Shown one piece after another: positions 539-32,000 of a stretch of DNA of 32,000 nucleotides (the first letter of the stretch is position 1; each line of letters starts with the position of its first letter). A program made the translations under genes and the position numbers. This DNA is from Kiritimatiella glycovorans. Lineage in GTDB: Bacteria > Verrucomicrobiota > Kiritimatiellia > Kiritimatiellales > Kiritimatiellaceae. Below the pieces are notes generated by a model. The model was not told the origin of the DNA. It was given only the letters and a program-made list of their open reading frames with translations, and did no database searches. The stretch is taken from contig NZ_CP010904.1 in assembly GCF_001017655.1 (NCBI RefSeq), positions 2,880,001 through 2,912,000 of the forward strand. The letters run 5' to 3'.

Positions 539-681
539 CATGAAGGCCATGAAGGTTGGTTCGGGGGAGGAGGAATCAGAGTCGGGATCGGGATTTGTAC
601 TCGTACGCGTACGTTGGGATGCGGGCGGATTTCGGGTCCGGCCAGATCTTACTCAGGTCTCAGGTTTCAGCCCTCCCACTC
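539..681. repeat. mosaic intergenic repeat, copy B
   Basis: CATGAAGG..CATGAAGGTTGGTT module also occurs at 28937-28970. GTACTCGTACGCGTACG hexamers at 597-613. The 79-bp stretch 603-681 matches 2247-2325 with 2 mismatches by eye. Confidence 0.75.
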
Positions 682-716: not shown

Positions 717-1946
717 CTACTGCCAGAGGCATGATACAGGCACGGCCCTGAGATTTGCTCCGAACGGAATGATCTCACGACCCGTATACAGAAGGACTCC
801 GCCGGTGAACCTCGCCCCGGCGTCCTGCGCCAGGGAATTCAGACCGCGGAAATCGTTCCGCTTAAGTGTTTGCGCAAGCTTCACCTCCACGCCGCAGATC
901 CGCCCTCCACTCTCGAGCACGAAATCCACTTCGGCACCGCCGCCGGTTCTATAATGGAGGAGTGCAGGCCGGTTCCGGCTCCACTCGATCTGCTTGATGA
1001 GTTCGCCGCCGACGAAGGTCTCAATGAATCGTCCGGCCAGGGTGGGATCACTCATCCATGAGGTCTCCGAAGCATTGAGGAGGTGCGTCATGAGACCGGT
1101 GTCGCCGAGCATCAGTTTCGGGGATTTGACGAGACGCTTCCCGAGGTTTGCGGCCCATGGCGGAATCCGATGGATCAGGAACGTGGTTTCAAAGAGCGAC
1201 AAATAACGCTGGAGCGTTGAGTACGGCACGACCGCGTTGCGTGATACCTCGGCAGCATTGAGCAAAGATCCGGATCGTGCCGCCAGCAGCGCCATGAGTC
1301 CGGGGGCCTGGGTGAGGCCTTCAATATGGGAGAGATCGCGAATATCCCTCTGCAGAACGGTGGTCAGATACGAGGCAAACCAGCTTCGCCGCCGGTCATC
1401 CGCCCTTCGAAGGGCTTCCGGATATCCGCCCCTGCTCACGCGCGCCGCCAGGTCCGCCCGACACACGGGCGCGGCGGGCTCGCAGGACGGTTTACCGCTC
1501 ATCAGGCGCTCTACGAATCCATCGCGGCGTTTTTCCTGTTCGCCCTGGGAAAAGGGACGCAGGGTGATGATCTCCATGCGCCCGGCCAGAGATTCCGAGA
1601 GCTTGGGCAACATCAGCACGTTGGCGGATCCCGTGAGAAGAAAACGCCCGGGCCGCCGATCTCGGTCCACACAGAGTTTGATGGCGGGGAAGACCTCCGG
1701 CGCCTTCTGCACTTCATCAAGAACCACCATGCCCTCAAGGCCCTCGATGAACCCCTGGGGATCATTGGCCACCGCCGCCATGACGCCTGCATCATCGAAT
1801 GTCAAATAAGTCGATCTTCCGGAGACCTCTTTCGCCAGCGCACGCACCAGCGTGGTCTTTCCCGTCTGCCGCGCCCCGTTAATCAATACCACCGGGGTGT
1901 CGGACAGGGCTGCCTTAACTCGATCTTCAATATTTCTTCTTATCAT
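717..1946 (-). CDS. AAA+ ATPase, DUF4143-type ATP-binding protein
   Basis: 409 aa. Walker A GARQTGKTT, Walker B-like VVLDEVQ. Overall architecture matches the widespread AAA_14/DUF4143 ATPases. Confidence 0.85.
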   Translation of the reverse strand: MIRRNIEDRVKAALSDTPVVLINGARQTGKTTLVRALAKEVSGRSTYLTFDDAGVMAAVANDPQGFIEGLEGMVVLDEVQKAPEVFPAIKLCVDRDRRPGRFLLTGSANVLMLPKLSESLAGRMEIITLRPFSQGEQEKRRDGFVERLMSGKPSCEPAAPVCRADLAARVSRGGYPEALRRADDRRRSWFASYLTTVLQRDIRDLSHIEGLTQAPGLMALLAARSGSLLNAAEVSRNAVVPYSTLQRYLSLFETTFLIHRIPPWAANLGKRLVKSPKLMLGDTGLMTHLLNASETSWMSDPTLAGRFIETFVGGELIKQIEWSRNRPALLHYRTGGGAEVDFVLESGGRICGVEVKLAQTLKRNDFRGLNSLAQDAGARFTGGVLLYTGREIIPFGANLRAVPVSCLWQ

Positions 1947-2325: not shown

Positions 2326-2340
2326 CTACACCCACTCCTC

Positions 2341-2482
2341 AGCGATTCTCATTATGGCTTCACCCTTTTCGGTCGGGGTGGCACCCGACCCTCCCAGTGC
2401 CCGAAAATGCGTCGGATATCGACTCGGGAGGGACGGCTGCCACGCCGTCCGCGGTCGGAATGCGGCCATAATGAGAACTGCT
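2341..2482. mobile_element. 142-bp MITE-like element, copy 1
   Basis: Terminal inverted repeats AGCGATTCTCATTATGGC / GCCATAATGAGAACTGCT. Flanked by the direct repeat CCCACTCCTC (2331-2340 and 2484-2493). Near-identical copy at 18874-19015. No ORF fits inside. Confidence 0.75.
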
Positions 2483-2501
2483 GCCCACTCCTCACTCGCA
2501 A

Positions 2502-2530
2502 TTGACACGCTCCCCCCCTGACCCTATATT
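2502..2530 (+). promoter_or_regulatory. sigma70-like promoter for thrS
   Basis: TTGACA (2502-2507), exact 17-nt spacer, TATATT (2525-2530), about 50 nt upstream of the thrS ATG. Confidence 0.5.
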
Positions 2531-2580: not shown

Positions 2581-4317
2581 ATGAGTCGGGAGCCGCATGA
2601 AAAACTGGAGGTCGTACGACACAGCGCCGCGCATGTGATGGCCGCTGCCGTGTGCCGTCTGTACGACGAAGTGCGTTTCGACATCGGACCCGCGACCGAA
2701 CAGGGATTCTACTACGATTTCGATCTCCCGGAACGCATCACCTCCGACGACTTTCCGCGGATCGAAGAAGAGATGCGTAAGATCGTGGGTGAGGACCACC
2801 CCTTCGAGCGCGTGGAGATGTCGCGGGAAGAAGCGGTCGAATGGCTCGAACAGCGCAACCAGACCTATAAGCTTGAACGCCTCGCCGAAATCCCGGAAGG
2901 CGAGACGATCACCTTCTACCGCACCGGCGATTTCATGGACCTCTGCCGGGGACCGCACGTCGAGTCCACCGGAAAAATAAGCGCCTTCAAACTGCTCAGC
3001 GTAGCGGGTTCCTATTTTCACGGCATCGAGACGAACCCGATGCTGCAGCGCGTCTACGGTACCGCCTTCACGAACCCCAAAGAGCTGCGCAAACACCTGC
3101 AGCAGCTCGAGGAGGCGCGCAAACGGGATCATCGCCGGCTCGGCCGCGATCTCGATCTGTTCAGCATCCGGGAGGACGTCGGTCCGGGCCTGGTGCACTG
3201 GCATCCCCGCGGCGCGCGCATCCGGGTGCTGATCGAGAACTTCTGGCGCGACGAGCATTTCCGCAACGGCTACGAGTTGCTCTTTACCCCGCACATCGGC
3301 AAGGCCAACCTCTGGGAGACTTCGGGACACCTCGGATTCTACCACGAGAGCATGTACGCGCCGATGGAGATCGACGGGCAGGAATACTATATCAAGCCGA
3401 TGAACTGCCCCTTTCACATCGCGGTCTACTCCTCGCAGACGCGCTCCTACCGCGACCTGCCGCTGCGCTGGGCCGAGCTGGGGACCGTGTACCGGTACGA
3501 GAAGGCCGGCGCGCTGCACGGCCTGCTGCGGGTGCGCGGATTCACACAGGACGACGCGCACATCTTCTGCACCCCCGACCAGGTCGAGGACGAAATCCGC
3601 GAGGTGCTCCGGTTCTCCACGGCCATCTGGAAGACCTTCGGTTTCGAGGATATCCGGGCCTATCTCTCCACGCGTCCGGAAAAGGCCGTCGGCGATCCCG
3701 CGCGCTGGGAGCAGTCCACCGCCGCGCTCGAGCGCGCGGTCGAGGCCGAGGAGCTTCCCGTGGAGCGCGACGAGGGCGGAGGGGCCTTCTACGGACCCAA
3801 GATCGATCTCAAGGTGCGCGATGCGATCGGACGCGAGTGGCAGATGAGTACCATCCAGTTCGACCTCAATCTGCCCGAACGATTCGACATTAATTTCGTA
3901 GGCTCCGACGGGCGCGAACACCGGCCCTACATGATCCATCGCGCCCTGTTCGGCAGCCTGGAACGCTTTTTCGGCATCCTGACCGAACACTACGGCGGGG
4001 CGTTTCCCGTCTGGCTGGCTCCCGAGCAGGCCAGGATCCTTCCGATCACCGACCGCCAGCTCCCGTACGCGAACGAAGTCGCGGCGGCCTTCCGCCGCGA
4101 GGACGTGCGGGTGACCGTCGATGCCCAGCAGGAGAAGATGGGGGCGAAAATACGGCGCGCCCAGCTCGGGAAAGTGCCGTATATGCTCGTGGTCGGCGAG
4201 CAGGAAGAGGAGGCCGGCGCCGTGGCCGTCCGCAGCCGGTCCGGGGGGCGCGAGGGCCAGGTGCCCTGGCGCGACTGCCTGGACAGGATACGCGCAGAGG
4301 CCGCTGAACGCCGGTAA
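2581..4317 (+). CDS. thrS: threonine--tRNA ligase (no N-terminal TGS domain)
   Basis: 578 aa. Begins directly at the editing-domain motif RHSAAHVMA. Class II core and anticodon-binding domain are recognisable. In-frame TAG at 2566-2568 rules out an N-terminal extension. Confidence 0.95.
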   Translation: MSREPHEKLEVVRHSAAHVMAAAVCRLYDEVRFDIGPATEQGFYYDFDLPERITSDDFPRIEEEMRKIVGEDHPFERVEMSREEAVEWLEQRNQTYKLERLAEIPEGETITFYRTGDFMDLCRGPHVESTGKISAFKLLSVAGSYFHGIETNPMLQRVYGTAFTNPKELRKHLQQLEEARKRDHRRLGRDLDLFSIREDVGPGLVHWHPRGARIRVLIENFWRDEHFRNGYELLFTPHIGKANLWETSGHLGFYHESMYAPMEIDGQEYYIKPMNCPFHIAVYSSQTRSYRDLPLRWAELGTVYRYEKAGALHGLLRVRGFTQDDAHIFCTPDQVEDEIREVLRFSTAIWKTFGFEDIRAYLSTRPEKAVGDPARWEQSTAALERAVEAEELPVERDEGGGAFYGPKIDLKVRDAIGREWQMSTIQFDLNLPERFDINFVGSDGREHRPYMIHRALFGSLERFFGILTEHYGGAFPVWLAPEQARILPITDRQLPYANEVAAAFRREDVRVTVDAQQEKMGAKIRRAQLGKVPYMLVVGEQEEEAGAVAVRSRSGGREGQVPWRDCLDRIRAEAAERR

Positions 4318-16256: not shown

Positions 16257-17795
16257 TCAGGTTTGCGCCCGCGCCCATGCGCGGGCGGCCTCGATCGGCC
16301 GCGTTTCGGGAACTCCCTCCGCCTCCGGGTCCCAGAAGTCGATGTACGGCTTGCCGTTGCGGTCGGCGGGATCGATGACGGCGTCCCGCAGTTCGACATA
16401 GGGCATGAAGGGGTCGTCAAAATGCGCCATCCAGTCCTGCGTGATGCGGTGCATCCGCTCCTGCGTCTCCCGGTATCCGGGCATGCCATAGAGATTGTTC
16501 AGGCACTGCGGATCGCGTCTCCGGTCGTAGAGTGCGTTGGTATCGTGCGGCCACCCTCCGGGGCCGCGGTAGCGCGGGTCGTACGAATAGATCCAGTCGC
16601 GCGTCGCCGCGCCCCGCCACTCGGTGCAGGAACACATGAACATCGGGACCGAAGCCCGGTCGTCGCCGTCGCCGCCGCGAAGCAACGCCTGCGAAAGATC
16701 GCGGCCGTGGCAGCTCGGCGGCGGCGAGACCCCCATCAGCGAGAGCAGCGTCGGCATGATATCCAGCGTCCCGAACGGGAGATCGGTCCGTTCGCCGGGC
16801 CGGAACCGACCCGGCCAGCGGATCATGAACGGAACCTGCGACGACTGGGATTCGGCGTGTGATTTGATGAAATAGCGCCCGTCCTGCTTTTTGAGCATAT
16901 CGCCGTGGTCGGCGGTGTAGACGACGATGGTGTCCTCGTCCATGCCCCGCTCCCTGAGCTTGTCCATCAGCATCCCGAAACAGTCGTCGATGCTGCTGAC
17001 CAGGGCCATATAGCCGTGCATCATCCGGCGGTTTTCCTCCGTGTCCGGCGTACCCTCACGGACGCGGACGGCCTCGTACTCGTAGCGGTCGAGATACTCG
17101 CGCGGTGCGCTGTAGGCGTAGTCATGATCCGGACTTCGGGTGCGGTGATTATGCGGCGGATGCCACGAGACGAAGAGGGTCCACGGCTCGTCCGCCTTGA
17201 CCCGGTCGAGAAAGTCGAGCGCCTGGCCGGTCTGCCCGAACGGCTCCCACTCACCGAATTTGATCCGCTCCCCGCTCTCGGGATGGAAGTAGAAGGCGTT
17301 GCCCGGCGTGTAGTTCAGATCGCAGTTGTTCGTGAGGAACAGGTCGTCGAACCCGTAGCGAAAAGGGCCGGCGGGAACCGGCTGATACCAGTACCCCCCA
17401 TAGAGGTGCCATTTGCCCACATAGGCGGTGGTGTAGCCCCGGCGTTTGAGGACCTCGGCAAAGTAGTCCCCGTTCCCGGGGCGCATCTGCACGCAGTTGT
17501 CGAAGGCGCCATTGTGGAGCGGGTGCTGACCGCTCAGGAGCGCGCCGCGCATCGGCGTGCAGAGGGGGGAGATCGAGAAGCAGCTGTCAAGGCTGAGCCC
17601 CTCGCGCGAAAAGGCGTCGAAGCGGGGTGTCTTCACCTGTTCACACCCGTTGCATCCCAGTATGTCGTACGAGTGCTGATCGGCGAACACGAACAGCAGA
17701 TTCGGCCTCTTCTTCATGCTCCCCCCCGCTCCCGCGCGCGCAGCGAGCCCGAGTCCGGCCGCCGTGCTTTTTTGTATGAAGGTTCTCCGTCGCAT
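16257..17795 (-). CDS. formylglycine-dependent sulfatase with twin-arginine signal
   Basis: MRRRTFIQKSTAAGLGLAARA signal. CxPxR maturation motif in SPLCTPMRGALLSG. ATG 17795 preferred because GGGAG lies 4 nt upstream; the track uses GTG 17801. Confidence 0.9.
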   Translation of the reverse strand: MRRRTFIQKSTAAGLGLAARAGAGGSMKKRPNLLFVFADQHSYDILGCNGCEQVKTPRFDAFSREGLSLDSCFSISPLCTPMRGALLSGQHPLHNGAFDNCVQMRPGNGDYFAEVLKRRGYTTAYVGKWHLYGGYWYQPVPAGPFRYGFDDLFLTNNCDLNYTPGNAFYFHPESGERIKFGEWEPFGQTGQALDFLDRVKADEPWTLFVSWHPPHNHRTRSPDHDYAYSAPREYLDRYEYEAVRVREGTPDTEENRRMMHGYMALVSSIDDCFGMLMDKLRERGMDEDTIVVYTADHGDMLKKQDGRYFIKSHAESQSSQVPFMIRWPGRFRPGERTDLPFGTLDIMPTLLSLMGVSPPPSCHGRDLSQALLRGGDGDDRASVPMFMCSCTEWRGAATRDWIYSYDPRYRGPGGWPHDTNALYDRRRDPQCLNNLYGMPGYRETQERMHRITQDWMAHFDDPFMPYVELRDAVIDPADRNGKPYIDFWDPEAEGVPETRPIEAARAWARAQT

Positions 17796-17901
17796 CAGCA
17801 CTCCCGTGAACTTGTCCCGCCCATTTCTGTGCGTGTATACTGGACGATGCGTCCGGAATCCGGAATGGACAGATGTCCGAGATTCATGTCATTTTGTCCA
17901 C

Positions 17902-18771
17902 ATGGCGCGGGAACGCACATACGCCGAAATTGAATTTCGCGGCTACGAGTCGGTCGATTTCGGGCTGGACCGCGAAAATCGCCCCCCGAATCTCATCTAT
18001 CATTTCACGCGGCAGCACCGGGGACCTCACATGCGGATCCGGACACGGGACCGCATGGGCTTCTGCGCGGCGCTGATCACCGACGGCGAGGCGGTCTTCC
18101 GGCATCTGGGCCGCGAGGCCCCGCTTCAGCGCGGATCGGTCTTTCTGCGACGCCCGAACGAGCCCTACGAATTTTTCAAGCGGGACCCGCACGATCTGCA
18201 TCTGATCATGATCATGTTCGACCCCGCGATCGACCGCGTGTGGGATGATCTGATCGATCCGGGAAGGATCGCGGTACAGCTCTGTGATGCGGGCGAGGTT
18301 ATCGATTTCACCTCGACGTTTTTCGATCTGCTGCAACGAACGTCGGACGACCGGATCACGCTGGCCAACCCCTTTGCCGAACTCTTTCTGCGCACCGTGC
18401 TCGGCGAAGACCTGAGGGGTCATTCTCAGGCGGACGGGGAGCGGTGGCGCACGGAACGCTGCCTGCGCTATGTGAAGAAGCATTACCGCGAACTGCGCAG
18501 CATCGAGGAAATCGCCGGGGCCTGCGGCTGCAGCAGGAGCCGACTCTACACCCTGTTCGGGAAACACGCGGACTGCACACCCAAAGAGTACCTGGAACGG
18601 CTCAAGATCCGCAGCGCCTGCGATTTCCTGATGCGTACCGACTGGACGCTCGAGCACATCGCCGGGGAAGTCGGTTATGCCGACGGTCCCACGTTCTCCA
18701 AAGCGTTTAAACGACGCACCGGCACCTCCCCGAAAGGATGGCGTCAGCGCATCCGGTCCCTGGCCCATTAG
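17902..18771 (+). CDS. AraC-family transcriptional regulator
   Basis: C-terminal double HTH (IEEIAGACGCSRSRLYTLF .. IAGEVGYADGPTFSKAFKRRTG). Start trimmed to ATG 17902. Divergent from the sulfatase gene. Confidence 0.85.
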   Translation: MARERTYAEIEFRGYESVDFGLDRENRPPNLIYHFTRQHRGPHMRIRTRDRMGFCAALITDGEAVFRHLGREAPLQRGSVFLRRPNEPYEFFKRDPHDLHLIMIMFDPAIDRVWDDLIDPGRIAVQLCDAGEVIDFTSTFFDLLQRTSDDRITLANPFAELFLRTVLGEDLRGHSQADGERWRTERCLRYVKKHYRELRSIEEIAGACGCSRSRLYTLFGKHADCTPKEYLERLKIRSACDFLMRTDWTLEHIAGEVGYADGPTFSKAFKRRTGTSPKGWRQRIRSLAH

Positions 18772-18827: not shown

Positions 18828-19062
18828 CGTACTCGTACTCGAATTCCTTGAACAGGGGGAGTGGGATCGCGCCAGCGATTCTCATTATGGCTTCACCCTT
18901 TTCGGTCGGGGTGGCACCCGACCCTCCCAATGCCCAAAAAGGCGTCGGATATCGACTCGGGAGGGACGGCTGCCACGCCGTCCGCGGTCGGAATGCGGCC
19001 ATAATGAGAACTGCTGGGATCGCGCCTTCGGCGCTCCGAGTACGCGTACGAGCAGGAGTACG
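18828..19062. repeat. mosaic palindromic repeat, copy C, split by the MITE
   Basis: Arm CGTACTCGTACTC (18828-18840) faces GAGTACGCGTACG (19038-19050). GAATTCCTTGAA and GGCGCGATCCC/GCGCC-TTC-GGCGC match copy D in the opposite orientation. Confidence 0.75.
18874..19015. mobile_element. 142-bp MITE-like element, copy 2
   Basis: Same 142 bp as 2341-2482, with a few central substitutions. Flanked by a perfect 11-bp direct repeat GGGATCGCGCC (18863-18873 and 19016-19026). Confidence 0.8.
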
Positions 19063-19135
19063 AAAACGGCGGACGGCCTTCTGCTGTACTGCAGAATCCC
19101 TACCCTCACGCACGGGTTCGGCTTGCGTCTCTCGG

Positions 19136-20083
19136 TTAGGGCGTGCTCTCCGAGCGCGCTGCCGGGAACGGCAGCGACATCCCGCCGTCATCGTCCGCGG
19201 GGAAATCGTCGAGTCCGTGTCGTTCGTCTTCCGAGCGGCGGTAGGCCGTGGGGGTGACGCCGGTGATCTCCCGGAACAGCTGCGAGAAGTAATTGCTGTC
19301 ATTGAATCCCGAAGCGTAGGCGGCCTCGGTCACCGTGCAGCGCCGCTCGCGCAGCAGCGAAGCGGCATGTTCGATCCTGAGCCGCCGGAGGTATTGGGTC
19401 GGGGTGGTATCGAGGGCCTCCCGGAAGAGCCGCTGGAGGGTCCGCACCGACGTGTGCTCCGCATCGGCGAGTTCCCGGACCGAGAGCGGATTCCGGAAAT
19501 GCTCTTCCATAAAACCGATGGCGCGGCTGATCCTGAGCAGGGCTTCCGACGAGGGTTCCTCCTGTTCCTCGTAGCAGCGGCCGAGGAAGGCGGCGAGTTG
19601 CATGAAGCGTCCGAACGCGGCCACGCGAAAGCCGGGGCGTTCTTCCTCCAGTTCCTCGTTTAATGCGCGCAGGTGGATCAGGGCCTCATGGAGGCGGTGG
19701 GCGGTGAGGTGCAGCCGGCCGCGGAATTCATTGCGCTCCCGCGCCGCGGGCTCCAGCGCGAAGAGCGCCCGGAAGCCGGGCAGGTCGCGCGCGTCCCAGT
19801 TCGCCATGCCCATGTGATCGAAGTCGTAGAGCACGTTGTACAGGGTGACCCCTTCCATATCGCGATAGGCGTGGCGCATCCCGCGGGGCACCACGAACAC
19901 GTCGCCTGCTGCGAACCCGTAGTCCGTGCCGCCCGCTTCGTGTCGGCCCTCTCCGCAGGCGATCAGCACGAGTTCATCGAACTCGTGCGCGTGCGGCTCC
20001 ATGTCGGGATGCTCCGTCTCCACGGCACACGCGAGAGGAGATTCGCGGAACAGATCGAGATACGCGCGGTCAAAGTGCATCAC
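19136..20083 (-). CDS. AraC-family regulator with N-terminal cupin sensor domain (RhaS/RhaR-like architecture)
   Basis: Cupin motif HAHEFDELVLI..GDVFVVPRGMRHAY, followed by a C-terminal AraC HTH. Confidence 0.9.
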   Translation of the reverse strand: MMHFDRAYLDLFRESPLACAVETEHPDMEPHAHEFDELVLIACGEGRHEAGGTDYGFAAGDVFVVPRGMRHAYRDMEGVTLYNVLYDFDHMGMANWDARDLPGFRALFALEPAARERNEFRGRLHLTAHRLHEALIHLRALNEELEEERPGFRVAAFGRFMQLAAFLGRCYEEQEEPSSEALLRISRAIGFMEEHFRNPLSVRELADAEHTSVRTLQRLFREALDTTPTQYLRRLRIEHAASLLRERRCTVTEAAYASGFNDSNYFSQLFREITGVTPTAYRRSEDERHGLDDFPADDDGGMSLPFPAARSESTP

Positions 20084-28936: not shown

Positions 28937-29089
28937 CATGAAGGACCTGAAGAGCATGAAGGTTGGTTGAGGAGGGGGACATATACTCGTACTCGCACTC
29001 GTACGCGTACTCGGAGCGCCGAAGGCGCGATCCCCTCCATCGATTCAAGGAATTCGAGTACGCGTGCGTTGTGACGCAAGCGGATTTCT
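28937..29089. repeat. mosaic palindromic repeat, copy D (uninterrupted, the empty site for the MITE)
   Basis: Hexamers at 28983-29012, GGAGCGCCGAAGGCGCGATCCCCTCC at 29013-29038, GAATTCGAGTACGCGTGCG at 29050-29068. Confidence 0.75.
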
Positions 29090-29235
29090 AATCCAGCCGC
29101 TACGATTTCAGTAGTTCTACAAAAATCCGGTTCTTCGTAGATTTTTGTGGTGGAGCCGTTCGGGGAAGAGGCGGGATGGGGATTCACCACAACGGTCACA
29201 GATCATGCCGGGGTCGGGATGGGAGACGACAAACA

Positions 29236-29342
29236 TTCGTAGTAGCGCCGCAAGCCTGCCCCCCGGCAGGCCAGGCGCGTGAAAGATAACGGCCCTGATC
29301 CTGCTTCGCAGGCCTGCGGGCCTACTACGAACGTAAGAGAGA
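29236..29342. repeat. structured repeat motif M2, copy 2
   Basis: Outer stem TTCGTAGTAG (29236-29245) / CTACTACGAA (29322-29331). Hairpins GCCTGCC-CCCC-GGCAGGC and CCTGC-TTC-GCAGG. Cores identical to copy 1. Confidence 0.6.
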
Positions 29343-29498
29343 ACGCACCATTTCTTTGCCTGTGCTCTTCTCATTCATCTTTGCGATCTCTGCGCCTTGG
29401 CGAGAGACCTTTCTTGTGTTTTCGGCCAGTAGAGTAGAGAGGGAGCCACGGGATGAGAGGCTTAGAGCCAATGACCGCGGACTGCCCTCCCCCTCGTC

Positions 29499-29531
29499 GA
29501 ACCGGACATGCGGATTTCCCGCATCCGGCTC
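29499..29531 (-). ncRNA. group II intron domain V
   Basis: - strand reads GAGCCGGATGCGGGAAATCCGCATGTCCGGTTC. It has the AGC triad, the GAGCCGG/CCGGTTC basal helix with G-U, the ATGCGG/CCGCAT upper helix, a GAAA-type loop and a 2-nt GT bulge. Confidence 0.8.
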
Positions 29532-29557
29532 TCGCGGAAGGCATTTGTTGGATGGTT

Positions 29558-30490
29558 TCACAGGTAGATCAGTCCCATGTTCTTGAAATGCGCGTAGTAG
29601 CTCATACCTTCAGGGGGCCAGTAGCCGCGCTGACTGCGTCGTTTCGCATGTCGCGTGAGACGCTGTCGCACGTATCCATTGACGTGGCGGAATGCCACAC
29701 GCGGATAACCCAGCGAGAAGTAGTTTGCCCATCCTCGCATTTGCATGTTGAGTTCGTCGATCACCGTCGGCAGAGGTTTGAAGCATTGTTCCGGTCCGGT
29801 CATCTCCCGAAGCCGATCACGTTCCCGTTGGAGCGCTTTCCGCGACGGTGTCAGGTTCCAGTACCGGCACGGGCGTCCGCCGAGGTCCCGGTCATAGCGG
29901 AAGCTATATCCGAGAAAGTCCAGCGTCTGCCCCGGTTCCCGAGCATCGAGTATCCGGGTTTTCTCCCGGTTAATCTTCAGCCCGAGCCACCCTTCTATCT
30001 TGGCTTCGATGAACGCTTCGAGTTGCGGACCGATATACCGGGCGAGGACCACGAAGTCATCGGCGTACCTCACCAGTTTGGCCTTCGCCCACCGTGCCGG
30101 TCCGTCTTTGCGGTAAAACACCGCATCGAACCAGTGCAGATAGATGTTGGCCAGAAGCGGCGAAATGACCCCGCCTTGCGGCGTGCCCTTGTCGTTGCGC
30201 TTCACGGTCGGCGGTTTGCCTTTCTCCGTTTCCTCTACCGGCGCTTTCAGCCACATTCGGATCAGCTTCAGCACGGACCGGTCGGTGACACGCATCTGCA
30301 CACAAGCGATGAGCTTGTCGTGTGGAATACTGTCGAAATAGCCGGCCAGATCCGCATCATAAACCGCACACCGCCCTTGCCGGAGCTCCTGTCCAATCGC
30401 CTTCAACGCATCATGCGCCGAGCGCTCAGGCCGGAACCCATGGGAGCAATCCTTGAAGTCAGCTTCAAAGATCGGTTCCAATATCGCTAC
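29558..30490 (-). pseudogene. group II intron reverse transcriptase/maturase, N-terminally truncated
   Basis: Begins mid-RT at (VAI)[30 protein letters not shown] active site ([10 protein letters not shown]). Maturase X motif RGWANYF. No endonuclease domain. RT domains 0-2 are missing. Confidence 0.85.
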
Positions 30491-30524
30491 GTGTCAACGC
30501 GAATGAGACACTTTTCTTGGCCGG

Positions 30525-31526
30525 TCACCCGGCCACTTCGAGTTCCTTCGGCTTGTTGATCCACACCTCCTCGGGCACGTGCCGTGGCGACGGCTCGCCC
30601 CGAACGAACCGCTCCGGATGCCGCTCGTAGGCGGCCAGGAGGGTCTGCTTCCGCTCCAACCAGCGCTCGTCGGCTCGGCCGGCATGTACGTCGGCCGGCG
30701 TCATCATGGCCAGGCCGGAGTGCCGGTGCTCGTCGTTGTACCAGCGGAAGAACTCCCGCAGGTACTGACGCGCATCCTCCAGCGACCCGAACCGCTCCGG
30801 GAACGTCCAGTGGTACTTCAGCGTCTTGAACTGGGCCTCGGAGTACGGGTTGTCGTTCGACACATGCGGCCGGGAGTAGCTGCGCGCCACGCCCAGCTCG
30901 ATGAGCAGGTCGATGAACCGGTTTGAACGCATCGCCTTGCCCCGGTCCGAGTGCAACGTCACCTCGTCGCGCCCGATCGCCTGCTGCTCGCAACAGTGGG
31001 TCACCAGCGCCTCGGCCTCCTCGCCGGATTCGGTCTCGCTGATCATCCAGCCGACCACGTAGCGGCTGAACACGTCCAGCACGACGTAGAGGTGGTAGAA
31101 GATCCACGACTTCGGTCCCTTGATCCGGGTGATATCCCACGACCATAGCTCGTTCGGGCGTGTCGCGAGCAGCTCCGGCTTCGTATAGGGCGGGTGGACG
31201 CGCTGGTCTCGGCGTTCGCGGACCTCCTCACGGCGCTTCAGCACACGGTACATCGTGCGCACGCTGCACACGTACTTGCCCTCGTCCAGGAGCGTGGCAT
31301 GCACTTCCGGGACGGCGTAGTCGCAGAACCGCTCGCTGTTCAGTTCGTCGATCACGTCCTGTTCCTCGTCCTCGCTGAGCCGACGATGCGAGATGCGCGG
31401 CGCGGGTGGCGGGGGCGGATCTTCCTTGCGCTTCCGCCACCGGTAGTACGTCGCGCGACTCACGCCCAGGGCTTCACAGGCCGCCTTCACGGAGAGCTTC
31501 TTGCCGTTGTCATCTACGGTCTGCAT
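30525..31526 (-). CDS. IS3-family transposase OrfB (DDE integrase core)
   Basis: 333 aa. HTH at the N-terminus. DDE residues in WSWDIT, HSDRG and NPYSEAQFKTLK. Confidence 0.9.
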   Translation of the reverse strand: MQTVDDNGKKLSVKAACEALGVSRATYYRWRKRKEDPPPPPAPRISHRRLSEDEEQDVIDELNSERFCDYAVPEVHATLLDEGKYVCSVRTMYRVLKRREEVRERRDQRVHPPYTKPELLATRPNELWSWDITRIKGPKSWIFYHLYVVLDVFSRYVVGWMISETESGEEAEALVTHCCEQQAIGRDEVTLHSDRGKAMRSNRFIDLLIELGVARSYSRPHVSNDNPYSEAQFKTLKYHWTFPERFGSLEDARQYLREFFRWYNDEHRHSGLAMMTPADVHAGRADERWLERKQTLLAAYERHPERFVRGEPSPRHVPEEVWINKPKELEVAG

Positions 31527-31528
31527 GC

Positions 31529-31996
31529 TCAGCTCTCGCTCTGCCCGGCGTCGCTGAGATCCTCCAGCAGTCGGGAGACTTTTTTTTGAAGCTCGATGAG
31601 CCCTTCGGCGCGGCGCAGCTTGGTCTTCAGCCGCTCGTTCTCGCGTTCAAGGCGCTTCATCTCGTTGCGCATCGAGCGCTTGCTCTTGCCGTCCGGGGTG
31701 ACATCGAAGCCCTTCTCGTCCATCGTGCGCCTCCATTGCATCCACTTCGTGAGTGTGCAGGAGTATAGCCCTTCCCGACGAGCCAGGGCAGCCAGTTCCC
31801 CCTTCCGGTGCTTACACTTCTCGGCCTCCTCCGCGATCCGCAGCTTGTACGCCACGTCCCATCGTTTTCGTTTCGCGACTCTCGGTGTCGCGGCTTCAGG
31901 ATCGGCGAGCTGTCCTGCCCGCGATCGGCGCGAGCCCCCCATGGGGGGCTCCTGTCCCTGGGACTGCTCCTCTACAACCAACGCCTCTGCCTTCAT
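31529..31996 (-). CDS. IS3-family transposase OrfA (HTH plus leucine-zipper-like coiled coil)
   Basis: 155 aa. KRLERENERLKTKLRRAEGLIELQKK coiled coil just before the slippery site. Confidence 0.85.
   Translation of the reverse strand: MKAEALVVEEQSQGQEPPMGGSRRSRAGQLADPEAATPRVAKRKRWDVAYKLRIAEEAEKCKHRKGELAALARREGLYSCTLTKWMQWRRTMDEKGFDVTPDGKSKRSMRNEMKRLERENERLKTKLRRAEGLIELQKKVSRLLEDLSDAGQSES
31580..31587 (-). other. programmed -1 ribosomal frameshift site (A8; A AAA AAA G)
   Basis: On the - strand: CTT CAA AAA AAA GTC within orfA. The -1 frame is open from here through the orfB ATG (..KKSLPTAGGSQRRRAERELSMQTV). A CTCAGC..GCTGAG stem lies downstream. Confidence 0.7.
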
Positions 31997-32000
31997 CCAA

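What the first reader, a model, noticed from the sequence alone, without database searches (positions are those of the whole stretch)
18863..19026. 142-bp MITE with terminal inverted repeats, site-specific flanking duplications, and both a filled and an empty site in the same window
The same 142-bp sequence occurs at 2341-2482 and 18874-19015. The few differences are central (CCCAGTGCCCGAAAATGC versus CCCAATGCCCAAAAAGGC). Its ends are inverted repeats (AGCGATTCTCATTATGGC ... GCCATAATGAGAACTGCT, 16/18). Each copy has its own flanking direct duplication. One is GGGATCGCGCC at 18863-18873 and 19016-19026 (11/11). The other is CCCACTCCTC at 2331-2340 and 2484-2493 (10/10, with a 1-nt offset). Different duplications at each site are the signature of transposition rather than segmental duplication. 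The 18.9-kb copy splits a palindromic intergenic repeat at ..GGCGCGATCCC.., and the uninterrupted version of that repeat is at 29013-29038. No ORF fits inside and no transposase with matching ends is in the window, so the element is non-autonomous and its partner is unknown. The IS3 element's inferred end, TGTCAACGCG.., does not match.
Basis: seen in the sequence. Interest (0 to 1): 0.7.

Follow-up and report, generated by a model that had tools for sequence, protein, structure and literature searches.

The report
MITE of a Tn5-like insertion sequence
The repeated sequence is a genuine 144-bp non-coding "hitch-hiker" transposon (MITE) in Kiritimatiella glycovorans; its ends are those of a widespread Tn5-like insertion sequence, so it is an ordinary kind of element with one odd feature in its interior.

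Summary
The element is 144 bp (2340-2483 and 18873-19016, 98% identical). It has 19-bp terminal inverted repeats, CAGCGATTCTCATTATGGC / GCCATAATGAGAACTGCTG, and 9-bp target-site duplications (not 10-11 bp). After excision, the 18.9-kb site aligns across the junction with an uninterrupted paralogous repeat at 28987-29068.

The unknown partner is identified as a family. The same ends flank 1.44-1.64 kb insertion sequences that encode a ~430-aa transposase. NCBI calls it an "ISNCY family transposase", and its predicted fold matches only Tn5 transposase. Those insertion sequences also make 9-bp duplications. The exact 18-mer end occurs in at least 120 genome loci whose record titles name about ten phyla. 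Among them are 55 small elements of 48-533 bp, and 33 of these have 9-bp duplications. No transposase copy lies in this window, and the rest of the genome could not be searched.

One twist is unexplained. The 80-bp core consists of two REP-like hairpins around a CTCCC/GGGAG stem. It recurs in metagenomes inside collinear MITE-like elements with different ends, and its hairpins show compensatory changes.

Verdict: a real MITE and a new member of a known kind (probably Nezha/ISNpu3-like). Interest is modest.

The parts
2340..2483 (+). MITE copy A (144 bp). It lies between the DUF4143 ATPase gene (717-1946, minus strand) and thrS (2581-4317, plus strand).
   Evidence: Direct repeat family D1; sequence; neighbouring genes.
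2340..2358 (+). Left terminal inverted repeat of copy A: CAGCGATTCTCATTATGGC.
   Evidence: family consensus.
2465..2483 (+). Right terminal inverted repeat of copy A: GCCATAATGAGAACTGCTG.
   Evidence: It is 19/19 identical to the right end of the 1437-bp insertion sequence in L149-L156.
2331..2339 (.). Left copy of the 9-bp target-site duplication of copy A: CCCACTCCT.
   Evidence: The 9-bp length is set by the family.
2484..2492 (.). Right copy of the 9-bp target-site duplication of copy A: CCCACTCCT.
2371..2450 (+). Core of copy A. Hairpin H1 is GGTCGGG-GTGGCA-CCCGACC (2371-2390). CTCCC (2391-2395) pairs with GGGAG (2426-2430) around a variable insert. Hairpin H2 is GGACGGC-TGCCAC-GCCGTCC (2431-2450).
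   Evidence: covariation.
18873..19016 (+). MITE copy B (144 bp). It lies between the 3' ends of two convergent AraC-family genes (17716-18771 plus strand; 19136-20083 minus strand).
18873..18891 (+). Left terminal inverted repeat of copy B.
   Evidence: (pair I25).
18998..19016 (+). Right terminal inverted repeat of copy B.
   Evidence: (pair I25).
18864..18872 (.). Left copy of the 9-bp target-site duplication of copy B: GGATCGCGC.
19017..19025 (.). Right copy of the 9-bp target-site duplication of copy B: GGATCGCGC.
18904..18983 (+). Core of copy B (H1 18904-18923, H2 18964-18983).
18828..19068 (-). Host intergenic repeat split by copy B. It consists of GTACTC/GTACGC hexamers, a GGAGCGCCGAAGGCGC hairpin, and TTCAAGGAATTCGAGTACG.
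   Evidence: Inverted pairs I1-I3; alignment.
28987..29068 (+). Uninterrupted paralog of that repeat, serving as a paralogous 'empty site'. The single target GCGCGATCC lies at 29025-29033.

Best explanation
The two 144-bp sequences are copies of a non-autonomous transposon (a MITE) in Kiritimatiella glycovorans.

Shown: each copy carries the 19-bp ends of a widespread insertion-sequence group and a 9-bp target-site duplication. NCBI names that group's ~430-aa transposase 'ISNCY family'. Its predicted fold is that of Tn5 transposase.

Inferred mechanism: a transposase supplied in trans binds the two 19-bp ends and pairs them. It excises the element by DDE-catalysed cleavage, probably through DNA hairpin intermediates as in Tn5 and Tn10. 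It then inserts the element at cuts staggered by 9 bp, and gap repair produces the 9-bp duplication. The 98% identity of the copies and their intact duplications point to fairly recent movement.

The interior is not a deletion remnant of the known autonomous elements. It is an 80-bp module of two REP-like hairpins flanking a CTCCC/GGGAG stem, and the whole unit transposes together.

Copy B landed in an intergenic palindromic repeat between two convergent genes. Copy A's right-hand duplication ends 10 bp upstream of the -35 hexamer of the likely thrS promoter. Neither copy interrupts a gene.
For: Anatomy: 144-nt repeat at 98% identity with unrelated flanks. 19-bp inverted ends. 9-bp duplications that differ between the two sites. 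Restored site collinear with the uninterrupted paralog.

About 119 of 127 matches are preceded by C. There are 55 small elements of 48-533 bp. Of these, 33 have at least 8 of 9 matching 9-bp flanks, against 5 of 5000 in a mismatched-pair control.

Partner: L016 carries a 1453-bp insertion sequence with a 434-aa ORF. Eight identical 1437-bp copies (L149-L156) have a right end 19/19 identical to the window's. Six of them have perfect 9-bp duplications and one has a 10-bp duplication. Plasmid pNPUN02 of Nostoc punctiforme carries a 1641-bp insertion sequence with ends CAGCAATTCTCATCATGAG / CAGCAATTCTCATTATGAG and an annotated 'ISNCY family transposase'. At least 7923 homologues score E <= 1e-10, mostly on contigs of 1.4-1.9 kb.

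Enzyme: weak DDE_Tnp_1 and IS4 profile hits. The AlphaFold model has pLDDT 88.9. Its only significant matches in the PDB are Tn5 transposase and the Tn5 transposase inhibitor protein (E 5e-11 to 5e-8, probability 1.0). D127, D216/D217 and E336 are invariant, the last within RWKIENETFNxLK. From established knowledge, Tn5/IS50 and IS10 make 9-bp duplications.
Against: No transposase homologue lies in the 32-kb window. The rest of the K. glycovorans genome could not be searched, so a resident partner, the copy number and current activity are all unknown.

The 'empty site' is a paralog, not an orthologous locus, and no close relative exists in the protein collection (the next AraC homologue is about 55% identical).

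Beyond the 19-bp ends, the element has no similarity to the subterminal sequence of the autonomous elements examined. Its origin is therefore not explained by simple internal deletion.

Transposition was not observed, and the hairpin-intermediate step is inferred from fold similarity to Tn5 only.
Confidence: 0.9

Rival explanations
1. The 144-bp sequence is a structured non-coding RNA gene present in two paralogous copies, with a long closing stem and a cloverleaf core. The inverted ends would be an RNA helix rather than transposase binding sites.
For: Both strands fold far better than shuffled sequence (z = -8.2). The core hairpins show compensatory changes across metagenomic relatives: 97.5% of cells are paired, hairpin H2 has 5 of 7 covarying pairs, and 0 of 500 shuffles reach the observed values.
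Against: No Rfam family matches, in the window or in loci that carry the core. The 'closing stem' is base-for-base the end of a DDE insertion sequence. Both copies carry 9-bp target duplications, and the paralog shows a precise empty site. An RNA gene does not predict either feature. Both strands fold equally well, as expected of a DNA palindrome.
Confidence: 0.03
2. The mobile unit is a REPIN (a doublet of REP hairpins) spread by a RAYT tyrosine transposase. The outer inverted repeats would be incidental.
For: The core is two inverted, individually palindromic, GC-rich hairpins of about 20 nt. Related hairpins form tandem or mosaic arrays in metagenome contigs L144/L126, L145 and L132.
Against: The repeated unit in the window is exactly the 144 bp including the insertion-sequence ends. 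It is flanked by 9-bp duplications, which Y1/RAYT transposition does not make (established knowledge). The hairpins occur in the window only inside the two MITE copies. No RAYT gene was seen in the window, but no specific search for one was made.
Confidence: 0.03
3. The two copies arose by segmental duplication or gene conversion between intergenic repeat mosaics, not by transposition.
For: The window is rich in other intergenic repeats that recur at 0.6, 2.2, 18.9 and 29 kb (families D2, D3, D8, D14 and pairs I1-I3).
Against: Homology ends exactly at the element termini, and the flanks are unrelated. Each copy has its own 9-bp duplication. The same ends and duplication length recur in dozens of unrelated genomes.
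Confidence: 0.01

Closest known systems
Nezha MITE and its proposed partner ISNpu3 (cyanobacteria; Zhou, Tran and Xu 2008, as summarised in PMC3184786)
   Same: Nezha is described as a 130-170 bp non-coding element with terminal inverted repeats, flanking direct repeats and a stable hairpin fold. Its ends are reported to be shared with ISNpu3 of Nostoc punctiforme. Here I found a 1641-bp 'ISNCY family' insertion sequence in N. punctiforme PCC 73102 whose ends match the window's in the first 13 bases and beyond. Its transposase is about 43% identical to that of L016.
   Different: I could not read the Nezha paper. It is therefore not verified that the N. punctiforme element found here is ISNpu3, or that Nezha has these exact ends. 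The host is a Kiritimatiellota bacterium, not a cyanobacterium. The interior (a REP-like doublet) is unrelated to the cyanobacterial small elements recovered here.
Tn5/IS50 and IS10 (IS4 family)
   Same: The partner transposase has a Tn5-like fold and a DDE triad with an R-x3-E...K motif. Both have roughly 19-bp ends that serve as the only cis requirement, and both make 9-bp target duplications.
   Different: There is no detectable sequence similarity to Tn5 transposase. Profile hits to IS4 lie below the curated thresholds. The tyrosine of the YREK signature is not evident. NCBI files the protein under ISNCY ('not classified yet'). The ends start CAGC rather than CTG.
REP / REPIN / BIME elements
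   Same: The core is two inverted GC-rich hairpins, each maintained by compensatory changes. Related hairpins occur in arrays elsewhere.
   Different: Here the doublet is cargo inside an element that carries terminal inverted repeats and target duplications. No stand-alone copies and no RAYT gene were seen in the window.
Classical bacterial MITEs (Correia, RUP, ERIC, MaeMITE, Chunjie)
   Same: Size, inverted ends, duplications, intergenic location and hairpin potential.
   Different: The cognate transposase family and the end sequence differ. The 19-bp end is unusually conserved, being found in genomes whose record titles name about ten phyla.

Membership tests
MITE (non-autonomous DDE transposon) | Small (under about 600 bp) and without coding capacity | tested here: met
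   The element is 144 bp. The only ORFs crossing it are long ORFs on both strands with no Pfam hits.
MITE (non-autonomous DDE transposon) | Terminal inverted repeats | tested here: met
   19-bp ends matching at 17 of 19 positions.
MITE (non-autonomous DDE transposon) | Target-site duplication of fixed length, with a different sequence at each copy | tested here: met
   The 9-bp duplications are CCCACTCCT and GGATCGCGC. A 9-bp length is the family norm.
MITE (non-autonomous DDE transposon) | Ends shared with an autonomous element that encodes a transposase | tested here: met
   L016, L149-L156 and L148.
MITE (non-autonomous DDE transposon) | Filled versus empty site | tested here: inconclusive
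   A precise paralogous empty site exists. An orthologous empty site could not be tested because no close relative is available.
MITE (non-autonomous DDE transposon) | Multiple copies in the genome and a cognate transposase in the same genome | not testable with these tools
   There are two copies in 32 kb and no transposase in the window.
Insertion sequences with the 'ISNCY family' Tn5-like transposase | End sequence CAGCAATTCTCATTATGGC | tested here: met
   The left end differs at 1 of 19 positions. The right end is 19/19 identical to that of L149-L156.
Insertion sequences with the 'ISNCY family' Tn5-like transposase | 9-bp target duplication | tested here: met
Nezha MITE | Ends identical to ISNpu3; size 130-170 bp | tested here: inconclusive
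   The size fits. The identity of the ends rests on a review's description and on an N. punctiforme insertion sequence that I could not confirm to be ISNpu3.
REPIN / REP | Doublet of short palindromic hairpins | tested here: met
   The core hairpins H1 and H2 are supported by covariation.
REPIN / REP | Spreads without target duplication, with a RAYT gene and many stand-alone copies | tested here: not met
   The mobile unit has 9-bp duplications. There are no stand-alone hairpins in the window.
Known structured RNA (Rfam 15) | Match to a covariance model | tested here: not met
   There is no hit at gathering score, and only chance-level hits at E <= 10.

The most novel reading that the evidence does not exclude
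The 80-bp core may be a selected functional module rather than filler. It consists of two REP-like hairpins with complementary loops around a CTCCC/GGGAG stem. The same core, with collinear arms of nearly the same length (31/33 nt against 32/34 nt), sits in metagenomic MITE-like elements whose ends are different (CATGGTCTTTCCTTTTGRCC). Several of those elements also have flanking duplications of about 9-10 bp. A further set of elements carries the core inside a third kind of outer inverted repeat. The hairpins are kept by compensatory changes, while the arms are only about 50-60% identical. This would mean a conserved structured cargo that has been re-armed with the ends of different transposases, or that promotes its own mobilisation or retention.
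Probability: 0.2. Interest if true: 0.55.

Novelty: new member of a known kind. Interest (0 to 1): 0.33.

Why it matters
The result explains a repeat in the only cultured Kiritimatiella genome and names the enzyme family that moves it. It shows that one 19-bp transposon end, with its 9-bp duplication, is shared by insertion sequences and dozens of MITE subfamilies in genomes whose record titles name about ten phyla. That end is a useful marker for annotation and for tracing horizontal spread. The work also flags a conserved hairpin module that travels inside MITEs with different ends. For the biology of the host the effect is probably small, because both copies are intergenic. Copy A's right-hand duplication ends 10 bp upstream of the -35 hexamer of the likely thrS promoter.

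Tried and rejected
- Rfam at gathering and E-value thresholds on the window and on six loci carrying the core found nothing relevant.
- Exact-protein look-ups for ThrRS, the DUF4143 ATPase, the rhamnosidase and the NCBI AraC protein P0121 all returned 'not on record'. I therefore could not walk along the K. glycovorans genome.
None of those loci was K. glycovorans or contained the window's interior.
- A literature search for the end sequence as text gave only unrelated primer matches.
- The Nezha paper is not held in the library.
- A sequence search of the transposase against PDB chains found nothing. Only the comparison of folds worked.
- The idea that the family targets palindromes, as copy B might suggest, was rejected. 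Restored target sites of 35 elements have a mean folding z-score of -0.3.
- The extended single-hairpin fold of the core was rejected in favour of local hairpins (82% against 97.5% of cells paired).
- Derivation of the element from an autonomous copy by simple internal deletion was rejected, because nothing beyond the 19-bp ends is similar to L016, L148 or L149.
- A sigma-70-type outward promoter inside the element was not found by the consensus scan.

Full report
**What is there**

The window contains one 144-nt direct repeat, at 2340-2483 and 18873-19016, with 98% identity. The only differences are three central substitutions.

The similarity stops at the element ends. The 100-nt flanks of the two copies share only 10-nt chance matches. 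The ends are inverted repeats (pair I25). The 18-mer AGCRRTTCTCATTATGGC matches four times in the window, once at each end of each copy, against 0.06 expected by chance.

Both strands fold into a long imperfect hairpin far more stable than shuffled sequence (z = -8.2), as expected of a DNA palindrome. Rfam has nothing for it.

**Boundaries and duplications**

Relatives fix the termini as CAGC...GCTG. The element is therefore 144 bp, with 19-bp terminal repeats CAGCGATTCTCATTATGGC / GCCATAATGAGAACTGCTG.

On that definition both copies are flanked by a perfect 9-bp duplication:
- CCCACTCCT at 2331-2339 and 2484-2492.
- GGATCGCGC at 18864-18872 and 19017-19025.

**Filled and empty site**

Copy B lies between two convergent AraC-family genes (17716-18771 on the plus strand, 19136-20083 on the minus strand). 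It sits inside another intergenic repeat made of GTACTC/GTACGC hexamers, a GGAGCGCCGAAGGCGC hairpin, and TTCAAGGAATTCGAGTACG.

I removed the element and one duplication copy in silico. The restored sequence (reverse complement) aligns across the junction with 28987-29068 over 83 nt at about 88% identity. The target GCGCGATCC is present once there, at 29025-29033. This is a precise empty site, but it is a paralogous one.

Copy A lies between a DUF4143 ATPase gene and thrS. Its right-hand duplication ends at 2492, 10 bp upstream of a strong promoter-like site: TTGACA, 17-nt spacer, TATATT, at 2502-2530. Neither copy disrupts a gene.

**The partner**

The record titles name Kiritimatiellia, Victivallales/Lentisphaerae, Verrucomicrobiota, Planctomycetota, Alpha- and Gammaproteobacteria, Desulfobacterota, Chloroflexota, Cyanobacteriota/Melainabacteria, Omnitrophota, Desantisbacteria and Eubacteriales. 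Many matches lie at contig ends, as expected of an assembly-breaking repeat.

These are mostly metagenome-assembled genomes, so individual taxonomic assignments of short repeat contigs should be treated with caution. By my own estimate, roughly 70 chance matches to an 18-mer with two purine-degenerate (R) positions are expected in 596 Gb. These hits are not chance:
- About 119 of 127 are preceded by C.
- 64 have the opposite end within 5.4 kb.
- Of the 55 distinct small elements (48-533 bp, mode about 120-134 bp), 33 have at least 8 of 9 identical 9-bp flanks. Eighteen of those are perfect. The mismatched-pair control gave 5 of 5000.

Autonomous elements carry the same ends:
- L016 (Thermohalobaculum) has a 1453-bp insertion sequence with a 434-aa ORF.
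- A homologue of that protein at 63% identity (P0044) lies in eight identical 1437-bp copies in one long-read assembly (L149-L156). Their right end is 19/19 identical to the window's. Six of the eight have perfect 9-bp duplications and one has a 10-bp duplication.
- Nostoc punctiforme plasmid pNPUN02 has a 1641-bp copy with ends CAGCAATTCTCATCATGAG / CAGCAATTCTCATTATGAG. Its gene is annotated 'ISNCY family transposase'.

The protein family is very large. At least 7923 proteins score E <= 1e-10, and most lie on contigs of 1.4-1.9 kb.

**The enzyme and the likely mechanism**

Profile hits are weak: DDE_Tnp_1 at E = 0.0016 and an IS4 model at E = 1e-5, both below the curated cut-offs. No PDB sequence matches.

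An AlphaFold model built from 42 homologues is confident (pLDDT 88.9, pTM 0.89). Its only significant structural matches are five Tn5 transposase structures and the Tn5 transposase inhibitor protein (E 5e-11 to 5e-8, probability 1.0, about 430 aligned columns for the best matches). D127, D216/D217 and E336 are invariant, the last within RWKIENETFNxLK.

From established knowledge, Tn5 and IS10 need only their roughly 19-bp ends in cis. They cut and paste through DNA hairpin intermediates and make 9-bp duplications.

I therefore infer the following. A transposase of this group, supplied in trans, pairs the two 19-bp ends of the 144-bp element. It excises the element and inserts it at a 9-bp staggered cut.

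The ends, the duplication length and the fold are shown. The chemistry and the in-trans supply are inferred.

**Host**

The AraC protein encoded at 17716-18771 is 100% identical to an NCBI protein of Kiritimatiella glycovorans on a 2,949,723-bp contig. The genome paper reports 2.95 Mb, 63.3% G+C and 75 transposase genes, and does not mention MITEs.

I could not reach the rest of that genome. Copy number, and the presence of a resident partner, are therefore open. No homologue of the transposase lies in the window.

**The odd interior**

Beyond the 19-bp ends, the element does not resemble the subterminal regions of the autonomous copies. It also does not resemble the interiors of the other small elements with these ends. 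Those interiors fall into many unrelated clusters. One cluster spans loci whose record titles name Lentisphaeraceae, Kiritimatiellae and Proteobacteria.

Instead, the central 80 bp has this layout:
- Hairpin H1: GGTCGGG-GTGGCA-CCCGACC.
- A CTCCC...GGGAG stem around a variable insert.
- Hairpin H2: GGACGGC-TGCCAC-GCCGTCC.

A metagenome scan with the H1 20-mer gave 27 loci. About twenty of them have the full H1 / CTCCC / GGGAG / H2 architecture but lack the ISNCY-type ends.

On an alignment of 15 distinct versions, the local-hairpin structure is 97.5% paired. Five of the 7 H2 pairs show changes on both sides (stems GACGGC, GCCGGC, GCGCGG, GCCGCC, GACGGG), and 0 of 500 shuffles reach the observed values. 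A single extended hairpin is only 82% paired. H1 is invariant by construction of the search, so it carries no information.

Seven loci (L122, L124, L125, L127, L128, L137, L147) carry the core inside elements that are collinear with the window's MITE from end to end, without indels. Their arms are 32/34 nt against 31/33 nt here. Their ends are different (CATGGTCTTTCCTTTTGRCC), and the arms are only about 50-60% identical to the window's. Five of the seven have flanking duplications of 8-10 bp; for example, L128 has ACAAGGCAAC on both sides. An eighth locus (L121) has the same left arm but is cut off by the end of its contig.

Another set (L138, L140, L143, L129, L133) has a third kind of outer inverted repeat. 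L144/L126, L145 and L132 hold tandem or mosaic arrays of related hairpins.

In the window, the hairpins occur only inside the two MITE copies.

The core thus looks like a REP doublet carried as cargo. I cannot explain why it is better conserved than the arms, or how the same core came to be framed by different ends.

**Comparison with what is known**

This is a bacterial MITE in the classical sense. The nearest described case is probably Nezha. A review describes it as a 130-170 bp cyanobacterial MITE sharing its ends with ISNpu3 of N. punctiforme (PMC3184786). The N. punctiforme element I found has the same ends as the window's MITE. I could not confirm that it is ISNpu3, nor read the Nezha paper, so membership is a strong lead and not a test result.

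The transposase works like Tn5 in fold and duplication length. It is not a demonstrable IS4-family member by sequence.

The REPIN reading fails for the mobile unit because of the duplications. It remains a fair description of the core.

**Verdict**

This is a new member of a known kind. The breadth and conservation of the 19-bp end, and the shared hairpin core, are worth a note. They do not change the picture of what a MITE is.

Noticed in passing
window 29429-32000 (minus strand): A group II intron is interrupted by an IS3-family element. Rfam matches intron domains V/VI at 29429-29533, and an RT/maturase ORF at 29558-30481 starts at position 32 of the RVT_1 profile. The IS3-family element has an rve ORF at 30525-31526 and an HTH_Tnp_1 ORF at 31529-31996. 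Its end, ...TCATTCGCGTTGACA, abuts the truncated RT ORF at about 30487-30505.
   Followed up: partly
window 541-681, 2032-2325, 18828-19068, 28948-29342: A mosaic of other intergenic repeats is present. (GTACTC/GTACGC)n runs with a GGAGCGCCGMAGGCGC hairpin lie at 2172-2229 and 28984-29034, and in inverted orientation at 19016-19068. A 79-nt repeat occurs at 603-681 and 2247-2325 (97% identity). A repeat of about 70 nt occurs at 2032-2101 and 29272-29342 (90-93%). The order of the modules differs between loci, and their nature is unknown.
   Followed up: partly
window 2502-2530: A near-consensus sigma-70-type promoter (TTGACA, 17-nt spacer, TATATT; 11 of 12 positions) lies upstream of thrS. It starts 10 bp after the right-hand duplication of MITE copy A, so the insertion displaced whatever lay upstream of the -35 hexamer.
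   Followed up: no
L144 7845-7926 and 10679-10825; L145 6525-6705; L132 2928-3100: Tandem or mosaic arrays of REP-like hairpins related to the MITE core occur in metagenome contigs, with periods of 27 nt and 72 nt. Their loops are GTGGAA/TTCCAC instead of GTGGCA/TGCCAC. The 27-nt array lies within a mechanically listed 1346-aa ORF (L144 6445-10485), so it may be coding.
   Followed up: partly
L004, L014, L031, L037, L056, L078, L099, L111, L117: Nine small elements of 121-134 bp with the same 19-bp ends share interior sequence with one another. Their record titles name Lentisphaeraceae, Kiritimatiellae and Proteobacteria, or an unclassified bacterium. This suggests horizontal spread of one MITE subfamily, or contamination from binning.
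   Followed up: partly
L050, L091, L096, L108 (downstream of a solo left end): Single ISNCY-type left ends with no right end within several kb are followed directly by runs of another short repeat (GTCATTCTGCGCGSAGCGAAGC). L011 holds a 48-bp mini-element that is little more than the two ends.
   Followed up: no
L030 3589-3688 and 6208-6308: Two 100-bp elements with the same ends but a 28% G+C interior lie in a 45% G+C genome. The interiors of this MITE family track host composition, while the 19-bp ends stay constant.
   Followed up: no
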